A stretch of DNA of 64,000 nt from Candidatus Levyibacteriota bacterium (GTDB lineage: Bacteria; Patescibacteriota; Microgenomatia; Levybacterales; GWA1-39-11), in NCBI GenBank assembly GCA_039738415.1, contig JBCLLY010000002.1, positions 9,792-73,791 on the forward strand, in the 5' to 3' direction. Shown here piece by piece: positions 3,700 to 60,161 of the stretch (positions within the stretch are counted from its first letter, which is position 1; every line of letters starts with the position of its first letter). The position numbers and the translations under genes were made by a program. A model generated the notes under the pieces. The model was not told the DNA's origin and ran no database searches. It was given only the letters and a program-made list of their open reading frames with translations.

Positions 3700-4344
3700 T
3701 TAATTGAAGCGGCGTATGAGTCCTACAACTTTTCCCTGAATTTTAAGGTCATTTGGATAAATAGGTTCCATATCGCGGTTTGCCGGCATAAGTACAATAC
3801 GCCCATTCTCTTTCATATATCTTTTAAGTGTTGCTAAATTATCGTCTACCAAAGCAACAACTATATCTCCTTCATCAGCTATATCGGATTTTTCGATTAC
3901 CACATAATCTCCATCCAGTATTCCGTCTTCAATCATCGAATTTCCCTTCACTTGAAGCGCATAGGAAGTTTTTTTACCAGCTAACATGGTTGAAGCTATT
4001 TCAAGAGTTGCTTCAGGGTCTGTATGAGGCTCTAGCGGACTACCTGCTGCAATATATCCCATTAGAGGCAATGCAATAGTAGGTCCAACAGCTCTTGTAA
4101 TATTTCCCAGTATAGCCCCCAATTTATCCTTATTAAGTACCTTAAGAGTCCTGTTATTTCCGTCTACTTTTTGGATATATCCCTTGTCAACGAGTGAACG
4201 GATTAAATTGTGAATCGTAGCGGGGCTTCGCCTATTCATGGCTTTTGCCATTACACGTAGAGTAGGTGAATATCCGTTTCCTTCCTGAAATTGGATTATA
4301 TATTGAAGCAAATCGCGTTCTCTTCTGTATAGCACTGCAGTCAT
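3700..4344 (-). CDS. lexA: LexA repressor (S24 peptidase)
   Basis: It has an N-terminal winged-helix region (GYSPTLRVMAKAM). The C-terminal region carries VKGNSMIEDGILDGDYVVI and LKRY, the Ser/Lys dyad context. It is divergent from uvrB. Confidence 0.9.
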   Translation of the reverse strand: MTAVLYRRERDLLQYIIQFQEGNGYSPTLRVMAKAMNRRSPATIHNLIRSLVDKGYIQKVDGNNRTLKVLNKDKLGAILGNITRAVGPTIALPLMGYIAAGSPLEPHTDPEATLEIASTMLAGKKTSYALQVKGNSMIEDGILDGDYVVIEKSDIADEGDIVVALVDDNLATLKRYMKENGRIVLMPANRDMEPIYPNDLKIQGKVVGLIRRFN

Positions 4345-4379
4345 AAATTTAGGTAATAGATAATAGTGAATAGAAAATA
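4345..4379. repeat. tandem heptamer array abutting the lexA start codon
   Basis: The + strand reads AAATTTA GGTAATA GATAATA GTGAATA GAAAATA. On the lexA strand this is TATTTTC TATTCAC TATTATC TATTACC TAAATTT followed directly by ATG. Confidence 0.6.
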
Positions 4380-9503: not shown

Positions 9504-11318
9504 ATGAGGCTATTTTTTTCTTTCCTAACAATTCTAATTTTCTTGTTTGGTTATAATAAGGTGGTCTTTGCAGATGAGAATTTCGATATTTGGGCAAAAA
9601 CTACTTATAGGGTAAGTTCCGACAATAAAACTTATGTTAATCATAATATTTCCATTCTAAACAAGAAGGAATTTATATTTTCTCCAACCTACAGTATTTC
9701 CTTTGGACTTGAGAATATCGGAAATACCAGAGTATTTAATACGAGTGGGTCAATTCCATATGACCTGAAAAAAGAAAATGGAGTAATTAATTTAACGATT
9801 AATTTCCTAAATCCTCCCAAGGGTATAAATACAGTAAATAATTTTACGCTTAGTTATGAAACAGACGAGTTGTTAGAAAAAAAAGGAAGTATTTACGAAG
9901 TAGACATTCCGGGCATTTCAAATCCTGATAGCTTTACAGAGTATGAAACAGAAATTATTGTTCCAAACGCCTTTCCCCAAATAAAGATTATCAAACCCAA
10001 CTTGCCCGAGAAAAAAAACAACTTGGTCTTTTCAAAGGAAGAAACAAAGGGTGCGGGAGTTGTTTTAATTTTTGGAGATGCACAGTACTATTATTTGGAT
10101 TTAACCTACAATATTTCAAATCCAAATCTTTTTCCAATTGTAACAGAAGTAGCTCTCCCACCGGACACAAATTATCAGAAGGTTTTAATTGAAAGTCTGA
10201 GCCTTAAACCAAGTGGTGTGAAAATTGACACTGATGGAAATTGGTTAGCCCAGTATCCGCTTTTGCCACGTGAGAAAAAGACAATAAATGCGAAAGTTAG
10301 GGTAATGCTTTACTCAATGCCAAGAGAAATCTCCCTGAACAAGGCGCAAATATCCTTATACACTAAGCCAAATAAGTATTGGGAGGTAAATGATTTGCAG
10401 ATTAAAAAACTTGCTGATGAGCTAAAAACTCCCGGGAAAATATATGAATACGTGGTGGAAAAACTTAATTACGATTTTGAGAAAACTTCGTCAGACAATG
10501 AAAGATTTGGTGCAAAAAAGGCACTCGATAACCCGGATAATGCAGTTTGTCTAGAATATGCGGATCTTTTTGTTACTCTTGCAAGAAGCGCAGGGATTCC
10601 CGCCCGGACTGTCGAGGGTTACGCATATACTAGAAATTCAAAACTCCGCCCATTGTCGCTAAATGGTGATGTGCTGCACGCTTGGGCGCAGTATTATGAC
10701 TTTGAAAAAAAAGCGTGGATAATGGTTGACCCTACATGGGGAAGCACAACGAGGGGAATTGATTATTTTAATAATTTGGATTTAGACCATATAGCTTTTG
10801 TAATAAAGGGTGAGGAGAGTACTTACCCAATTCCTGCGGGCGGTTATAAATTTGAAAATGAATCAAAAGACTTAGAGGTTTCGTTTTTGAGCCAGGAGCA
10901 GTTTAAGGTTAAAGAAAATATTGTAATCAGTAATACTTTCTCAAAATTTAGCTTTGCCGGAATTCCTATTTCGGGATTTGTAAATGTAGTAAATAATGGT
11001 AACAGTTTTATTTCATCAAAATCCGTTACTGTTACAAATAGTTCAACCGGTCAGATTAAAGAATACGAGATAAAAAACATTCCTCCTTTTGGTCAAGAGT
11101 CATTTTTGGTGACTTTTGATACCTCATTTTTTACAAATTCAAGCCACAATATTAAAATCCAAATTGATGATTTGGAGGAAAATATTGAAGTTAAAGTTTC
11201 TTTAATTCCGGATTTAAATATAATTTTGATGGGAGGTGGTATTTTTGCTGCAACGGGAATTGTTACTTTCTTTACCTACAAAACCTGGCGTGTATATTTA
11301 CAAAGACGCAGGAAATAA
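9504..11318 (+). CDS. membrane-anchored transglutaminase-like domain protein
   Basis: It has an N-terminal signal/TM segment and a C-terminal TM segment. The core reads AVCLEYADLFVTLARSAGIPARTVEGYAY...HAWAQYYD...WIMVDPTW, matching a Cys-His-Asp transglutaminase-like core. Confidence 0.7.
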   Translation: MRLFFSFLTILIFLFGYNKVVFADENFDIWAKTTYRVSSDNKTYVNHNISILNKKEFIFSPTYSISFGLENIGNTRVFNTSGSIPYDLKKENGVINLTINFLNPPKGINTVNNFTLSYETDELLEKKGSIYEVDIPGISNPDSFTEYETEIIVPNAFPQIKIIKPNLPEKKNNLVFSKEETKGAGVVLIFGDAQYYYLDLTYNISNPNLFPIVTEVALPPDTNYQKVLIESLSLKPSGVKIDTDGNWLAQYPLLPREKKTINAKVRVMLYSMPREISLNKAQISLYTKPNKYWEVNDLQIKKLADELKTPGKIYEYVVEKLNYDFEKTSSDNERFGAKKALDNPDNAVCLEYADLFVTLARSAGIPARTVEGYAYTRNSKLRPLSLNGDVLHAWAQYYDFEKKAWIMVDPTWGSTTRGIDYFNNLDLDHIAFVIKGEESTYPIPAGGYKFENESKDLEVSFLSQEQFKVKENIVISNTFSKFSFAGIPISGFVNVVNNGNSFISSKSVTVTNSSTGQIKEYEIKNIPPFGQESFLVTFDTSFFTNSSHNIKIQIDDLEENIEVKVSLIPDLNIILMGGGIFAATGIVTFFTYKTWRVYLQRRRK

Positions 11319-17847: not shown

Positions 17848-17931
17848 ACGAATATTATAGCAAGAATTGAATTTATTTGTAGCTTAAGGATAAATTCTGT
17901 TAAAATAACAATACTCTCATTTGGGAGAAGG

Positions 17932-18004
17932 GCGCCTGTAGCTTAATGGATAGAGCACCTCGCTTCGGACGAGGCGGTTGGGGGTTCGACTCCCTTCAGG
18001 CGCG
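17932..18004 (+). tRNA. tRNA-Arg(UCG)
   Basis: Hand-folded cloverleaf: acceptor GCGCCTG/CAGGCGC, anticodon arm CCTCG CTTCGGA CGAGG, T loop TTCGACT. No encoded CCA. Confidence 0.85.
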
Positions 18005-18053
18005 CCTCACTTTGTTCGGCGTAAACGCCTTTAATAGTTGAACAGGTTTATAT

Positions 18054-18299
18054 ATGTGGTTCGTTTACATACTCGAGTGTTCCGACAGAACTCTCTTTAC
18101 AGGAATAATAACTAATGTTTTGCGGAGAATTAACGAGCATAATTTAAAAATTGGTGCGAAGTCTTTAAGAGGAAAGTTGCCCGTTAAACTAGTATATAAA
18201 GAATTGTATAATAGTCAAACCAAAGCCGCACAAAGAGAGCGAGAAATTAAAGGGTGGAGGCGAGAAAAGAAATTAAATTTAATTCAGGGTTTACCCTGA
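18054..18299 (+). CDS. GIY-YIG nuclease superfamily protein (UPF0213-like)
   Basis: 81 aa. WFVYILECSDRTLFTGIITNVLRRINEHN...REREIKGWRREKK. It lies between two tRNA genes. Confidence 0.8.
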   Translation: MWFVYILECSDRTLFTGIITNVLRRINEHNLKIGAKSLRGKLPVKLVYKELYNSQTKAAQREREIKGWRREKKLNLIQGLP

Positions 18300-18388: not shown

Positions 18389-18504
18389 CACTTTAACAAT
18401 CTCAGTGTTTCACACTGAGATTGTTGGAGATTGGTCGGGACGAGGAGTTTATCCCGCTGAGCAAAGCGAAGGAACTGAAAGCGGGAAGTCCCTGGTCGCT
18501 CACA
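18373..18504 (+). repeat. direct repeat of the tRNA-Lys 3' end flanking a structured 96-nt spacer
   Basis: AGTCCCTGGTCGCTCACA occurs at 18373-18390 and again at 18487-18504. The spacer holds a perfect 14-bp hairpin (18395-18425) and the motif GGGAC GAGGAGTTTAT CCCGC...GCGGG. Confidence 0.85.
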
Positions 18505-37223: not shown

Positions 37224-37281
37224 TGGACTCGAGGGGATTCGAACCCCTAATCTGTCCGACGTACATCGGGCCGCTCTATAC
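37224..37281 (-). pseudogene. 3' tRNA fragment (D-arm 3' strand to discriminator), degenerate anticodon arm
   Basis: The minus strand reads TATAGAGCG GCCCGATGTACGTCGGAC AGATT AGGGG TTCGAAT CCCCT CGAGTCC A. No matching 5' acceptor strand is present nearby. Confidence 0.5.
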
Positions 37282-37341
37282 TGTGGACCGGATCCCGCTT
37301 AGCGGGACAACCCCTCCATTTTCGCCCCCTAGATTTAACTG

Positions 37342-39026: not shown

Positions 39027-39112
39027 CTTGAAATTCAATTGGGACGAGAAGTTTATCCTGCTGTGCCCGCCTCTGGAGGGAACGAAGTTGAAGGAAGTCC
39101 CGCCCCAGGCAC
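39011..39112 (+). repeat. direct repeat of the tRNA-Leu(UAA) 3' end flanking a 68-nt spacer with the GAGAAGTTTAT motif
   Basis: AGTCCCGCCCCAGGCAC occurs at 39011-39027 and again at 39096-39112. The spacer contains GGGAC GAGAAGTTTAT CCTGC (39041-39061). Confidence 0.85.
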
Positions 39113-49393: not shown

Positions 49394-49522
49394 CGACTGA
49401 TTTAACAAAATCTTAAATTTCTCCGCCTGCTGCTGGACATGGATCCCCTTCGATTCGCTCAGGGTAAACGAACCGAGATAAACAGCTCCAAAGGCTATCC
49501 CGCCAATTTGTCTTTACCAGAG

Positions 49523-49593
49523 CTACCGGACTTGGATTCGAACCAAGATAAACAGCTCCAAAGGCTGTTGTCCTACCATTAGACGATCCGGTA
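49523..49593 (-). tRNA. tRNA-Gln(UUG)
   Basis: Acceptor TACCGGA/TCCGGTA gives U1:A72, with G73. Anticodon arm ACAGC CTTTGGA GCTGT, T arm CTTGG TTCGAAT CCAAG. Confidence 0.85.
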
Positions 49594-49793
49594 GCCCCAA
49601 CAAAGACAATCTTTAATTGGCGGGACCATTAGACCTGCCCGTAATGCCAACCATTGTTCTTACGTGGCGGGCGGGCGACATCCCAATATCAATTAATCAA
49701 GCGAGTATTAATTGAACTCAAATATTATATCAGCTAACGACTAATTTACCAAAAGTAGCTAACGCCTATAGATAACACCTACGAGGCGATAGT

Positions 49794-54331: not shown

Positions 54332-54498
54332 ACTTCTCGCCCTGCGCTATGTAGGGTGCAACAGCAAACACTAAGTTTATCGAAGTGTGGGCGCTAGAGG
54401 GCTCCCCGATGTTCATCGGGATAAACTTCTCGCCCTCAACTATGTAGGTTGCAACAGCAAACACTGAGTTTATCTAAAGTGTGGGCGCTAGAGGGCTC
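54332..54498 (-). repeat. two-copy tandem repeat (period about 93-94 nt) of the tRNA-Val(UAC) 3' end plus trailer
   Basis: Units 54332-54404 and 54425-54498 differ at about 7 positions. Each ends (tRNA sense: begins) with GAGCCCTCTAGCGCCCACACTT. They are separated by the hairpin CCCGATGAACATCGGG. Confidence 0.85.
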
Positions 54499-59257: not shown

Positions 59258-59302
59258 TATTGAATTGTTACATATTCTTTATTCTGTTAAAATTACCTCG
59301 TT

Positions 59303-59483
59303 GCGCGCATAGCTCAGTGGTAGAGTACTTCATTGACACCTGCCCGCTATGTACTTGGATCTATAGCTCAGTTGGTTAGAGCGTTGCATTGACATTGCAA
59401 AGGTCAGTGGTTCGAGTCCACTTAGATCCACAAGCAAGGCAGGCGGGTCGAAGGGGTCCATGGTTCAAACCCATGTGCGCGCA
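59303..59483 (+). tRNA. tRNA-Val(GAC) interrupted after the anticodon loop by a 109-nt insert (outer gene)
   Basis: The 5' half 59303-59339 and 3' half 59449-59483 share a 7/7 acceptor stem (GCGCGCA/TGCGCGC), an anticodon loop TTGACAC and a T arm CATGG TTCAAAC CCATG. Joined, they give 72 nt. Confidence 0.65.
59357..59430 (+). tRNA. tRNA-Val(GAC) (inner gene, complete)
   Basis: Acceptor GGATCTA/TAGATCC, anticodon arm TTGCA TTGACAT TGCAA, T arm AGTGG TTCGAGT CCACT. Confidence 0.85.
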
Positions 59484-59547
59484 CTACTCCAAGGTCATCC
59501 CGCTAAGGGGGATCAGGCGAGCATTTTTAATTTTTAATTATTCTTCA

Positions 59548-59585: not shown

Positions 59586-60161
59586 ATGACTCGAGACGGG
59601 GCATACCAAACTCTTACTGTTTATACACAGTCGCAAAATCTAATAAGACATAATTTGGCAGTAGAAGCTGCAATGAGGACTCTTGCGAAATATTTGTCAA
59701 CTGTAAAAAATCAATATTTTGATACTGAGCAGTGGGGAATAACAGGACTTTTGCACGATGCGGATTACGAGCTAACCCGTAAAACTCCGGAGCAACACAC
59801 TTTGTATCTGGAGGAAAAACTCGGCGAACAAATCCCACCCGAAATTATGTACGCCATAAAAGCCCATAATTTTGCTTATACGAAAGTTGAACCGATATCT
59901 CTTATGGATTGGTCATTATATACTTGTGACGAGACAACGGGTTTTATCGTCGCCTGTGCTTTAGTCCTACCCGATAAAAAACTAAAAAGCGTAACGGTCG
60001 AGTTTGTTATAAAGAAAATGGAGGATTTATCATTTGCAAGCAATGTTAACCGCGATCAAATAAAATTATGCGAAAAAAGCTTGAATATTCCTCTTCCTGA
60101 GTTTACCAAAATTGTACTTACTTCTATGCAAAGTATTGATAGTGAACTCGGACTCGCGTAA
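59586..60161 (+). CDS. HD-domain metal-dependent phosphohydrolase
   Basis: GLLHDADYE and KAHN motifs. Confidence 0.7.
   Translation: MTRDGAYQTLTVYTQSQNLIRHNLAVEAAMRTLAKYLSTVKNQYFDTEQWGITGLLHDADYELTRKTPEQHTLYLEEKLGEQIPPEIMYAIKAHNFAYTKVEPISLMDWSLYTCDETTGFIVACALVLPDKKLKSVTVEFVIKKMEDLSFASNVNRDQIKLCEKSLNIPLPEFTKIVLTSMQSIDSELGLA

What the first reader, a model, noticed from the sequence alone, without database searches (positions are those of the whole stretch)
59303..59483. A tRNA-Val(GAC) gene split in its anticodon loop by a 109-nt insert that carries a second complete tRNA-Val(GAC)
59303-59339 (GCGCGCA TA GCTC AGTGGTA GAGT A CTTCA TTGACAC) is a clean tRNA 5' half ending in an anticodon loop with GAC. 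59449-59483 (CGAAG GGGTC CATGG TTCAAAC CCATG TGCGCGC A) is the matching 3' half. The acceptor stem pairs 7/7, the T arm is intact and the anticodon stem pairs 4/5. Joined, the halves give a normal 72-nt tRNA.

The intervening 59340-59448 holds an independent 74-nt cloverleaf with the same anticodon (59357-59430). It is preceded by the leader motif CCTGCCCGCTATGTACTT, which also precedes other tRNAs in this window. The insert ends can pair with each other (CCTGCC 59339-59344 with GGCAGG 59438-59443).

Two readings are possible. One is a tRNA-bearing insertion cassette or intron that lands in, and functionally replaces, its own isoacceptor. The other is a nested precursor that needs endonuclease and ligase processing. 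I am not aware of a described bacterial tRNA-inside-tRNA arrangement.
Basis: partly seen in the sequence, partly recalled or inferred. Interest (0 to 1): 0.88.

Follow-up and report, generated by a model that had tools for sequence, protein, structure and literature searches.

The report
Replacement tRNA cassette inside dead tRNA
A 109-base cassette carrying a working valine tRNA gene sits inside the anticodon loop of the resident valine tRNA gene of a tiny uncultured bacterium, disabling and replacing it, and similar cassettes occur in about 80 other tRNA genes of related bacteria, an arrangement I could not find described.

Summary
An intact tRNA-Val(GAC) gene (59357-59430) lies in a 109-nt insert (59339-59447). 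The insert splits a second tRNA-Val(GAC) gene (59303-59338 and 59448-59483) between positions 37 and 38. One sub-claim is wrong: the 18-nt "leader motif" occurs only once in the window.

Relatives settle what it is. The uninterrupted outer gene sits at the same locus in L084 and L088 (the empty site). L082 has the same cassette at the same site, but its outer gene has decayed. L085 holds three nested layers.

It gave 82 distinct cassettes carrying Val, Thr, Met, Arg, Pro, Gly, Ala or Ile tRNAs. Each lies inside a tRNA gene, almost always one with the same anticodon. The inner gene is intact in 82 of 82. The outer gene can be restored in only 31 of 82.

Best reading: a non-autonomous, hairpin-armed DNA cassette inserts precisely (no target duplication) into the isoacceptor gene it can replace. 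It is transcribed from the resident promoter and leaves a decaying pseudogene. It is not a bulge-helix-bulge (BHB) intron, a group I intron or an integrase element. How it moves is unknown. I found no published description.

The parts
59265..59293 (+). Sigma-70-like promoter (TTGTTA, 17 nt, TAAAAT, with TG before the -10). It ends 9 nt upstream of the outer gene and presumably drives the whole nest.
   Evidence: The TTCTG(T/A)TAAAAT box is conserved upstream of the same outer gene in L082 and L084. The scan found no promoter-like site between it and the inner gene.
59303..59338 (+). Outer tRNA-Val(GAC), 5' part (positions 1-37: acceptor 5' strand, D arm, anticodon stem 5' strand, loop through A37). 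Read as a pseudogene fragment.
   Evidence: Identical to the first 36 nt of the uninterrupted gene in L084 and L088.
59339..59356 (+). Left arm of the cassette (CCTGCCCGCTATGTACTT).
   Evidence: Pairs with the right arm (duplex -17.6 kcal/mol; stalk). The same arm is found in L082 and L085. The terminal CCTGCCYG is shared by 82 cassettes, although the scan pattern required it.
59357..59430 (+). Inner, intact tRNA-Val(GAC): the cargo and the only tRNA-Val(GAC) gene called in the window.
   Evidence: ARAGORN. Rfam 74.7 bits. All stems fully paired. The T stem differs from the L082 orthologue by a compensatory pair.
59431..59447 (+). Right arm of the cassette (CAAGCAAGGCAGGCGGG).
59448..59483 (+). 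Outer tRNA-Val(GAC), 3' part (positions 38-73). It carries T39C, which breaks the 31-39 pair.
   Evidence: compare L084/L088 TTGAAG with window TCGAAG.
59484..59523 (+). Possible remnant of a still older tRNA-Val 3' half (..CCAAGGTCATC..ATCAGG..) with a small GC hairpin in place of the T arm. Low confidence.
   Evidence: Aligns with the degenerate outer 3' half that surrounds the same gene in L088.

Best explanation
Claim: a 109-bp non-coding DNA cassette has inserted precisely between positions 37 and 38 of the resident tRNA-Val(GAC) gene of a Levybacteria (CPR/Patescibacteria) genome. The cassette is an 18-nt left arm, a complete tRNA-Val(GAC) gene and a 17-nt right arm that pairs with the left arm.

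Shown by comparison:
- The insertion is exact, with no duplicated or lost bases.
- The interrupted outer gene is no longer maintained and decays.
- The cargo gene is maintained.
- The process repeats, so loci build up nested layers.
- The cassette belongs to a family with conserved arm termini. Its members carry many different tRNAs and sit almost always in a gene with the same anticodon.

Inferred:
- The cassette has no promoter of its own. It is transcribed from the resident promoter as part of the outer precursor.
- The GC-rich arm helix keeps the cargo folded apart from the homologous outer halves.
- RNase P and 3' processing release the cargo tRNA, which takes over decoding. The outer halves are discarded.
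- The same-anticodon rule arises because an insertion into a single-copy tRNA gene survives only if the cargo replaces the lost function, because spread needs homology between donor exons and the recipient gene, or for both reasons.
- Later recombination between the homologous inner and outer segments removes one side of a nest and leaves half-gene remnants.

Unknown: the enzyme that moves the cassette. Both orientations of cargo-less hairpins, the absence of target duplication and the hairpin ends point to a DNA-level, trans-mobilised palindromic element, possibly moving through a single-stranded intermediate.
For: - Empty site: L084 and L088 carry the uninterrupted outer gene at the syntenic locus upstream of the HD-hydrolase gene (Rfam 70 bits).
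- Filled orthologue: L082 has the same outer gene, site and cassette. Its outer copy has U33C and a broken T arm, while its inner copy keeps structure through a compensatory change.
- Window outer gene: T39C breaks pair 31-39.
- Recursion: in L085/L086/L087 the window-type cassette is the middle of three layers. In L088 the window's outer-type gene is itself nested in an older remnant. L056 has several layers.
About 31 hits are GC-rich chance matches. The 82 distinct real cassettes carry Val, Thr, Met, Arg, Pro, Gly, Ala or Ile tRNAs.
- Same anticodon: 26 of the 31 restorable hosts match by ARAGORN. By my reading of the flanks, three of the five exceptions (L153, L171, L253) are mis-parses and one (L198: Val-CAC in Val-TAC) is real. 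L154 is unresolved.
- Asymmetry: the inner gene is intact in 82 of 82, and the outer is restorable in 31 of 82.
- Precise excision: removing both inserts from the L021 outer gene gives a sequence 75/75 identical to the intact tRNA of L027.
- Non-autonomous: no gene recurs near the 120 loci.
- DNA-level insertion: hairpins with related termini but no cargo occur in host remnants in both orientations.
- Promoter only upstream of the outer gene.
- Lineage: Levybacteria for the Val loci and for one Thr nest.
Against: - No transposase, integrase or target duplication was found, so mobility is inferred from distribution only.
- Among 27 restorable same-anticodon hosts, 13 have no stem mismatch in my rough cloverleaf scoring. 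The L021 outer gene is identical to a functional orthologue despite two inserts. This fits very recent insertion or gene conversion from the inner copy, but it also fits retained function.
- The window's outer T stem differs from L084 by a compensatory pair. If the window and L082 share one ancestral insertion, that pair arose in a supposedly dead gene. Independent insertions into already diverged alleles would explain it.
- The scan pattern fixed the arm termini and part of the cargo D arm, so conservation of those bases and the 82-of-82 intact cargo figure are partly ascertainment.
- Complementarity of the variable inner part of the arms is only modestly better for cognate pairs than for non-cognate pairs (p about 0.01).
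- There are no RNA data.
Confidence: 0.72

Rival explanations
1. The hairpin-bounded insert is a new kind of bacterial tRNA intron. An unknown activity cuts at the base of the arm helix and ligates the exons, so one transcript yields two tRNA-Val(GAC) molecules and the outer gene stays functional.
For: - The outer exons in the window are nearly perfect.
- 13 of 27 restorable hosts have flawless stems.
- The L021 outer gene minus its two inserts equals a functional orthologue.
- Sites cluster in the D arm, anticodon loop and T loop, the regions where, from memory, archaeal introns lie.
- The two splice points face each other across a conserved helix.
Against: - I could find no bulge-helix-bulge geometry by inspecting the window, L021 and Thr junctions (sequences).
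- A paper on Patescibacteria tRNA introns states that BHB introns are not reported in bacteria (PMC13011429).
- Outer genes decay: L082, L085, and 51 of 82 are not restorable. Inner genes never decay (82 of 82).
- Cargo-less hairpins occur in both orientations relative to the host transcript.
- Cargo-less hairpins were found only in hosts that also hold a nested intact copy.
- Some sites lie inside the D stem.
Confidence: 0.08
2. There is no dedicated mobility. Nests arose rarely and spread only by ordinary homologous recombination after DNA uptake, with the outer exons and flanking genes serving as homology. The arms are conserved because they act as an RNA processing or insulating stalk for the cargo.
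For: - The insertion is precise with no target duplication. The same-anticodon rule and the same site in related genomes (window, L082, L030, L039, L164) are what recombination-based homing predicts.
- Alleles turn over quickly at this locus: L083 and L084 encode an identical HD protein but carry different tRNA-Val genes.
- No linked enzyme gene was found.
Against: - Near-identical arms occur at different sites (D arm, anticodon loop, T loop) and in tRNAs of eight amino-acid types.
- A conserved 36-nt cargo-less hairpin family exists and is found in either orientation.
- Several inserts can lie in one host gene (L021, L085, L213, L257).
- These points require at least occasional transposition to new sites.
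Confidence: 0.14
3. The arrangement is a local accident: a duplicated copy of the resident gene fell into it, or a repair scar, with no wider meaning.
For: In one case (L152) the inner and outer genes differ by a single base.
Against: - In the window the inner and outer genes are only 69% identical and have different D-loop lengths and acceptor stems.
- The arms are shared with cassettes in about 80 other loci.
- The empty site and the independently decaying filled site show a discrete insertion.
Confidence: 0.03
4. The nest is an assembly chimera.
For: None was found. The source is a metagenome-assembled genome.
Against: - The nest sequence is identical in contig JBCLLX010000001.1 of assembly GCA_039731645.1 (L001).
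- The orthologous nest occurs in a JGI contig (L082 = L179).
- The related triple nest occurs in ENA, JGI and Logan assemblies of different samples.
Confidence: 0.01

Closest known systems
Integrative elements (prophages, ICEs, genomic islands) that target tRNA genes and carry a replacement piece of the gene in attP (established knowledge, from memory)
   Same: They target a tRNA gene, often at the anticodon loop or T loop. They preserve decoding by bringing tRNA sequence with them. They leave displaced tRNA fragments.
   Different: Those elements encode a tyrosine integrase, carry only the 3' part of the tRNA, are kilobases long and are flanked by direct repeats. This cassette is 109 bp, has no gene and carries a whole tRNA between inverted-repeat arms. 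It has no direct repeats and leaves both halves of the host gene in place.
Archaeal bulge-helix-bulge tRNA introns, including non-canonical positions, intron transposition in Thermoproteales and introns that host a C/D box RNA (from memory)
   Same: Short inserts lie at 37/38 and at D-arm and T-arm positions. Related inserts occur in different tRNAs. A functional RNA can lie inside the insert.
   Different: No BHB motif is present. The host is bacterial. Outer genes decay, and hairpins occur in both orientations. PMC13011429 states that BHB introns are not reported in bacteria.
Group I introns in tRNA anticodon loops of Patescibacteria (PMC13011429)
   Same: Same phylum, same kind of target (the tRNA anticodon loop, including position 35/36), and missed by standard annotation.
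   Different: Those are self-splicing ribozymes of a few hundred nt. Here the insert is 109 nt, and Rfam finds only a tRNA in it.
Small palindromic non-autonomous elements: REP/REPIN with RAYT, MITEs, Rickettsia palindromic elements, yeast mitochondrial GC clusters (from memory)
   Same: Tens to about 100 bp, GC-rich inverted-repeat ends that fold into a hairpin, no coding capacity, mobilised in trans, and can sit inside genes.
   Different: I know of none that carry a tRNA gene in the hairpin loop, that are confined to tRNA genes, or that follow a same-anticodon rule. No RAYT-like or other transposase has been identified here.
Free-standing GIY-YIG homing endonuclease SegB in the phage T4 tRNA region (PMC13096335)
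   Same: A GIY-YIG nuclease gene embedded among tRNA genes is implicated in double-strand breaks in tRNA-containing sequence and in recombination-driven replacement or amplification of tRNA genes. Small GIY-YIG ORFs abut tRNA genes in 6 of 6 cases in the CPR sequence held.
   Different: The CPR proteins are 81-100 aa, a catalytic domain only. They adjoin only 2 of the cassette loci held (L171 and L180). No cleavage data exist. The link to the cassettes is a lead, not a result.
Split and permuted tRNA genes (Nanoarchaeum, Caldivirga, Cyanidioschyzon; from memory)
   Same: tRNA halves are separated at the anticodon loop, with complementary GC-rich sequences next to the break.
   Different: Those halves are essential, are expressed from separate loci or as permuted transcripts, and are joined by the splicing machinery. 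Here the halves flank a complete replacement gene and decay.

Membership tests
BHB (archaeal-type) tRNA intron | Two 3-nt bulges separated by a 4-bp helix at the exon-intron junctions | tested here: not met
   Checked by inspection of the junctions in the window, in L021 (two inserts) and in Thr, Met and Pro hosts (sequences). The insert helix starts directly at both junctions (C1 pairs with the last G). The anticodon-loop bases are left unpaired and split 6+1, 4+3, 5+2 or 3+4. No exon-intron 4-bp helix can be drawn.
BHB (archaeal-type) tRNA intron | Exons kept functional by selection, because the spliced product is the tRNA | tested here: not met
   The L082 outer gene has U33C and a broken T arm. 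The L085 outer T loop is disrupted. In 51 of 82 hosts precise excision does not restore a tRNA, while 82 of 82 cargo genes are intact.
BHB (archaeal-type) tRNA intron | Splicing endonuclease (EndA) and RtcB-type ligase encoded by the organism | not tested
   Only 64 kb of the genome is held. Pfam annotation was read for about 47 kb of it and showed neither.
Group I intron in a tRNA | Ribozyme core (P3-P9), typically 200 nt or more | tested here: not met
   The insert is 109 nt, of which 74 nt are a tRNA. Rfam gives no intron family at gathering score or at E up to 5.
tRNA-targeting integrative element (tyrosine integrase type) | Integrase gene within the element | tested here: not met
   The element is 109 bp and has no room for a gene. 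No gene recurs near the 120 cassette loci.
tRNA-targeting integrative element (tyrosine integrase type) | Direct repeats (att core) consisting of the tRNA 3' part at both ends | tested here: not met
   Comparison of the empty site (L084) with the filled sites (window, L082) shows an exact insertion with no repeat. The ends are inverted repeats.
MITE / REPIN-like palindromic element | Terminal inverted repeats that fold into a hairpin, with no coding capacity | tested here: met
   Arms CCUGCCCGC and GCAGGCGGG pair end to end. Cargo-less versions of 30-42 nt are simple hairpins.
MITE / REPIN-like palindromic element | Many dispersed copies per genome, typically intergenic, usually with a target-site duplication (MITE) or a cognate RAYT gene (REPIN) | tested here: not met
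   The window holds two copies, both inside tRNA remnants. In 1.46 Mb of held sequence, all but three hairpins matching the relaxed termini pattern lie in or next to tRNA remnants. There is no target duplication. No transposase-like family appears among the annotated genes of the window stretches covered; whole genomes were not examined.
Split tRNA gene (Nanoarchaeum type) | Halves encoded at separate loci and both required | tested here: not met
   The halves are 109 nt apart around a complete isoacceptor gene, and they decay in relatives.

The most novel reading that the evidence does not exclude
The cassette may be an actively homing 'kill-and-replace' tRNA element. A trans-acting nuclease or single-strand transposase would open tRNA genes at exposed D, anticodon or T positions. 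One candidate lead is the small GIY-YIG proteins that sit against tRNA genes in these genomes. The hairpin-armed cargo would then be inserted, with target choice set by the cargo tRNA sequence itself. That would make it a natural, nucleic-acid-guided, cleave-and-rescue style gene drive, one that continually replaces tRNA alleles in CPR bacteria and builds the nested layers.
Probability: 0.2. Interest if true: 0.95.

Novelty: categorically new. Interest (0 to 1): 0.85.

Why it matters
tRNA genes are usually treated as the most static parts of a bacterial genome and as passive landing pads for integrases. Here a tRNA gene is the passenger of a tiny element that invades the gene it can replace, again and again.

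- It gives a concrete mechanism for rapid tRNA allele turnover and horizontal spread in organisms with one copy of each tRNA.
- It explains the tRNA fragments that litter these genomes and will confuse annotation. In default mode ARAGORN reports only the inner gene.
- It offers a natural example of a "disrupt and rescue" selfish strategy made entirely of RNA-gene sequence.
- It revives, in bacteria, the old question of how split and intron-bearing tRNA genes arise. The observed sites (D arm, anticodon loop, T loop) can be tested against one explanation, namely DNA-level insertion of hairpin elements.
- The conserved 8-11 bp arm termini give a handle for finding the mobilising enzyme.

Tried and rejected
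- Leader motif shared by other tRNAs in the window: only one copy exists.
- Phage origin of the window: blastn against phage genomes matched only generic tRNA sequence. The genes are bacterial housekeeping genes of a Levybacteria MAG.
- First collection pattern (left arm plus D arm only): all 52 viral hits were tandem tRNA genes in which CCTGCCTG is the T-stem and acceptor end of the upstream tRNA. I therefore added the right arm to the pattern. That pattern found 0 viral contigs.
- About 31 of the 120 metagenome hits are chance matches in GC-rich contigs with no tRNA. They were excluded.
- BHB motif, group I intron, other Rfam families: none (and inspection).
- Recurrent neighbouring protein (a candidate transposase): none. 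The largest cluster covers 7 of 120 loci and is syntenic housekeeping.
- ARAGORN intron mode, used to find tRNAs interrupted only by a hairpin: the output is dominated by inner/outer hybrid calls. The candidates I inspected were all hybrids.
- Ungapped covariation of arm positions 9-14: weak beyond position 11 because of bulges. The duplex-energy test was only modestly significant.
- Campbell-type integration of a circular cassette, a serine-recombinase dinucleotide crossover, and integron attC logic were each compared with the junction sequences. None fits: no tandem hybrid genes, no shared dinucleotide, and the arms lie at opposite ends.
- One look-up of encoding contigs for window 9504-11318 found nothing on record.

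Full report
**What is in the sequence**

ARAGORN and Rfam find one tRNA-Val(GAC) at 59357-59430 (74.7 bits). The 36-37 bases on either side of a 109-nt block, once joined, are themselves called tRNA-Val(gac). That joined gene has a 7/7 acceptor stem, an intact T arm and one A31.C39 mismatch in the anticodon stem. With introns allowed, ARAGORN calls 59303-59484 as a single tRNA-Val(gac) with a 109-nt intron. The 182 nt fold as a cloverleaf on a helical stalk set into the anticodon loop of a second cloverleaf (-69.2 kcal/mol, z = -3.4). The 18-mer CCTGCCCGCTATGTACTT occurs only once in the window, even with three mismatches allowed.

**Where the window comes from**

The neighbouring genes are a DEAD-box helicase, trigger factor, ThrRS, IF3, L35, L20 and PheS, together with the DUF5660 and DUF5665 domain proteins. 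The window matches contig JBCLLX010000001.1 of MAG GCA_039731645.1. Homologues of the HD-hydrolase gene just downstream (59586-60161) are named Candidatus Levybacteria or Patescibacteria where they carry a name. About 50 of 80 related loci in species-representative genomes have a tRNA-Val(GAC) gene near this gene.

**Relatives decide the question**

- L084 (HD protein 77% identical) and L088 (80% identical) carry the uninterrupted outer gene: GCGCGCATAGCTCAGTGGTAGAGTACTTCATTGACATTGAAGGGGTCTATGGTTCAAATCCATATGCGCGCA. It scores 70 bits in Rfam. This is the empty site. It also fixes the insert as 59339-59447, between A37 and T38, with nothing duplicated or lost.
- L082 (80% identical) has the same outer gene, the same site and the same cassette (CCTGCCTGCTATGCACTT, the GGATCTA-type tRNA, then CAAGAAGGCAGGCGGG). 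Its outer copy has lost U33 and has a wrecked T stem and loop. Its inner copy differs from the window's by a compensatory T-stem pair.
- The window's outer copy carries T39C, which breaks pair 31-39.
- In L085/L086/L087, from three independent assemblies, the window-type cassette is the middle layer of a triple nest. It has itself been hit by a 36-nt hairpin and by a third cassette at 37/38. Only the innermost gene is intact.
- In L088 the window's outer-type gene is itself nested inside an older, degenerate tRNA-Val. A remnant of that older layer probably survives at 59484-59523 in the window.
- L083 and L084 encode identical HD proteins yet carry different tRNA-Val alleles. Turnover at this locus is therefore fast.

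**A family, not a one-off**

L021 holds a homologous cassette, also exactly 109 nt, in the D stem of another tRNA-Val(GAC), plus a 32-nt cargo-less hairpin with the same termini in its T loop. Removing both gives a sequence 75/75 identical to the intact tRNA of L027.

I scanned public collections for CCTGCCYG-N12-26-AGCTCAG-N58-82-CAGGCGGG. About 31 hits are chance matches in GC-rich contigs.

The remaining 82 distinct cassettes carry Val (CAC, GAC, TAC), Thr (TGT, CGT, GGT), Met, Arg (five anticodons), Pro, Gly, Ala or Ile tRNAs. All but a few lie inside recognisable tRNA sequence. L191/L232 look like tandem tRNA genes, and L255 and L261 are doubtful. Where precise excision restores an ARAGORN tRNA (31 cases), the host anticodon equals the cargo anticodon in 26. 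By my reading of the flanks, three of the five exceptions are mis-parses caused by further hairpins. One (Val-CAC in Val-TAC) is real and one (L154) is unresolved.

Insertion sites cluster in three regions:

| Region | Site |
|---|---|
| D arm | TAGA\|GC, ATA\|GAGC |
| Anticodon loop | 37/38 in Val, 35/36 in Thr and Met, 36/37 in Pro, 34/35 in Arg |
| T loop | TTC\|GA |

One Thr nest that I checked is also from Levybacteria.

**Inner versus outer**

Every real cassette has an ARAGORN-positive cargo (82 of 82). Only 31 of 82 hosts can be restored. If both copies worked, either one should be free to decay. Only the outer one does.

Two caveats apply. The scan pattern required part of the cargo D arm. 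Also, 13 of 27 restorable hosts are still flawless in my rough cloverleaf scoring. I attribute the flawless hosts to recent insertion or to gene conversion from the inner copy.

**Anatomy of the arms**

- The two ends pair from the very first and last base: CCUGCCCG(C/A)C with G(G/U)CAGGCGGG.
- There is a U.G at pair 3, which my pattern fixed. There is a C.A at pair 7, present in 65 of 69 arm pairs although T was allowed there.
- The variable inner parts of cognate arms pair slightly better than those of non-cognate arms (p about 0.01).
- I could draw no bulge-helix-bulge at any junction, and Rfam sees no ribozyme.
- Cargo-less hairpins of 30-42 nt with related termini form a conserved family of their own. 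Several from different contigs fit roughly CCTGCCCGCAATGCTNNGCANAGCGTTGCAGGCGGG.
- These hairpins were seen only in host genes that already contain a nested intact copy. They occur in both orientations relative to the host tRNA, which argues for insertion into DNA rather than an RNA-level event.
- No protein gene recurs next to the cassettes.

**How I think it works**

- Shown by comparison: exact insertion, loss of constraint on the host gene, maintenance of the cargo, recurrence, and a family with diverse cargo.
- Predicted: a promoter (TTGTTA, 17 nt, TAAAAT, with TG before the -10) ends 9 nt before the outer gene. It is conserved in L082 and L084, and the scan found no promoter-like site between it and the cargo. 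The cargo would therefore be transcribed within the outer precursor.
- Inferred: the GC-rich stalk isolates the cargo from the homologous outer halves. RNase P and 3' processing then release the cargo.
- Inferred: recombination between the homologous inner and outer segments explains one-sided remnants. L030 and L039 keep the 5' half and left arm only. L002 and L005 keep a displaced 3' part.
- Possible explanations for the same-anticodon rule: survival only when the cargo rescues the disrupted single-copy gene, homology-dependent spread, or both.
- Unknown: the mobilising activity.

**A lead on the enzyme**

Small GIY-YIG nuclease ORFs (81-100 aa; Pfam E-values 1e-14 to 1e-18) lie directly against tRNA genes in 6 of 6 cases in the 1.46 Mb held. 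One is at window 18054-18299, between tRNA-Arg and tRNA-Lys. Two adjoin nests, in L171 and L180. Phage T4 SegB is a GIY-YIG endonuclease implicated in breaks in tRNA-containing sequence (PMC13096335). The link to the cassettes is untested.

**Comparison with known systems and novelty**

The strategy of targeting a tRNA gene while carrying the sequence that restores it resembles tRNA-targeting integrases. The form resembles REPIN or MITE hairpins. The positions resemble archaeal introns. Each membership test fails on a defining feature: no integrase or direct repeats, no dispersed intergenic copies or target duplication, and no BHB or exon conservation.

The only tRNA interruptions reported for this phylum in the library searched are group I introns. 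[quoted passage not shown] Seven full-text searches found no description of a tRNA gene nested in a tRNA gene.

**Limits**

- No RNA data and no whole genomes were available.
- The lineage was checked for only a few contigs.
- The mobility mechanism is inferred from distribution alone.

Noticed in passing
window 49447-49685 (- strand): A second nest lies in the same window. Intact tRNA-Gln(TTG) (49522-49593) sits between arms CCCGCCAATT... and ...AATTGGCGGG (49594-49624 and 49499-49522), inside fragments of an older tRNA-Gln (49676-49685, about 49625-49633, 49469-49498). The host remnant also carries a 42-nt cargo-less hairpin (49634-49675) in the opposite orientation to the tRNA, a 6-nt deletion of its D-stem 3' strand, and a 22-nt T-loop insert (49447-49468).
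   Followed up: partly
window 18487-18503, 39096-39112, 54387-54404 (-), 37232-37248 (-): Exact 17-18 nt copies of a tRNA's own 3' end (T loop to discriminator) lie 68-97 nt downstream of tRNA-Lys(CTT), Leu(TAA) and Val(TAC). A 17-nt copy of the T arm lies about 90 nt downstream of tRNA-Ala(GGC). The spacers before the Lys, Leu and Val copies share a motif, GGG(A)CGAGRAGTTTATCCYG, ending in ...GAAGGA in two of them. Across all held CPR loci, 14 of 292 tRNAs have such a downstream copy. These may be collapsed nests or a second, T-loop-specific insert family.
   Followed up: partly
window 18054-18299 (+); also L171 7543-7795 and 5432-5690, L180 4830-5100 and 10070-10316, L154 2843-3100: Stand-alone GIY-YIG nuclease ORFs of 81-100 aa lie within 0-20 nt of a tRNA gene on the same strand in 6 of 6 cases. 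Two directly adjoin tRNA-in-tRNA nests. This may be a trans-acting nuclease or a free-standing homing endonuclease of tRNA loci.
   Followed up: partly
L180 4560-4612 and 5128-5180: 53-nt direct repeats, 568 nt apart, flank a unit made of a Met-in-Met nest plus a GIY-YIG gene, next to another tRNA-Met. It looks like a duplicated or inserted module.
   Followed up: no
L083 2833-2907 versus L084 84-156: Two contigs from different samples encode the identical HD-hydrolase protein (P0006). At the same position they carry unrelated tRNA-Val(GAC) alleles (GGGCTCG type versus GCGCGCA type) and about 70 nt of different downstream sequence. This is rapid allele replacement.
   Followed up: partly
L003, L014, L022, L026, L030, L040, L044, L045, L049-L052, L054, L055: In 14 of the Levybacteria loci the tRNA-Val(GAC) gene near the HD-hydrolase gene lies on the opposite strand. 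The tRNA locus is rearranged far more often than its protein-coding neighbours.
   Followed up: no
window 59499-59511, 37290-37305 region; L171, L154, L169, L019 host remnants: Other tiny GC-rich hairpins of 13-20 nt interrupt decayed tRNA remnants. Examples are CCCGCTAAGCGGG/CCCGCTAAGGGGG, TCCGCCTTTGGCGGA and CCCCGATTCAATCGGGG. Several mini-hairpin families seem to accumulate in dead tRNA genes.
   Followed up: no
L002 about 3890-3980, L005 about 3890-3960, L010 about 4290-4370: Downstream of the intact Val(GAC) gene lie truncated tRNA-Val-like 3' parts, some with a CAC anticodon. Their anticodon region is interrupted by a different conserved insert of about 32-35 nt (..CCCCAAGGGCAC...GGCGCA..).
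   Followed up: no
window 17869-17890: A remnant resembling the D arm of tRNA-Arg(TCG) (TTTGTAGCTTAAGGATAAATTC) lies about 40 nt upstream of the intact gene at 17932-18006.
   Followed up: no
L226 about 1311-1470: A tRNA-Ile(GAT) gene is nested in a tRNA-Ile(GAT) gene, with a different arm family (CCCGCCCGCCTTGACTTCGCC and GGCGAAGTCGGGCG). The arrangement is therefore not limited to the CCTGCCYG arms.
   Followed up: no
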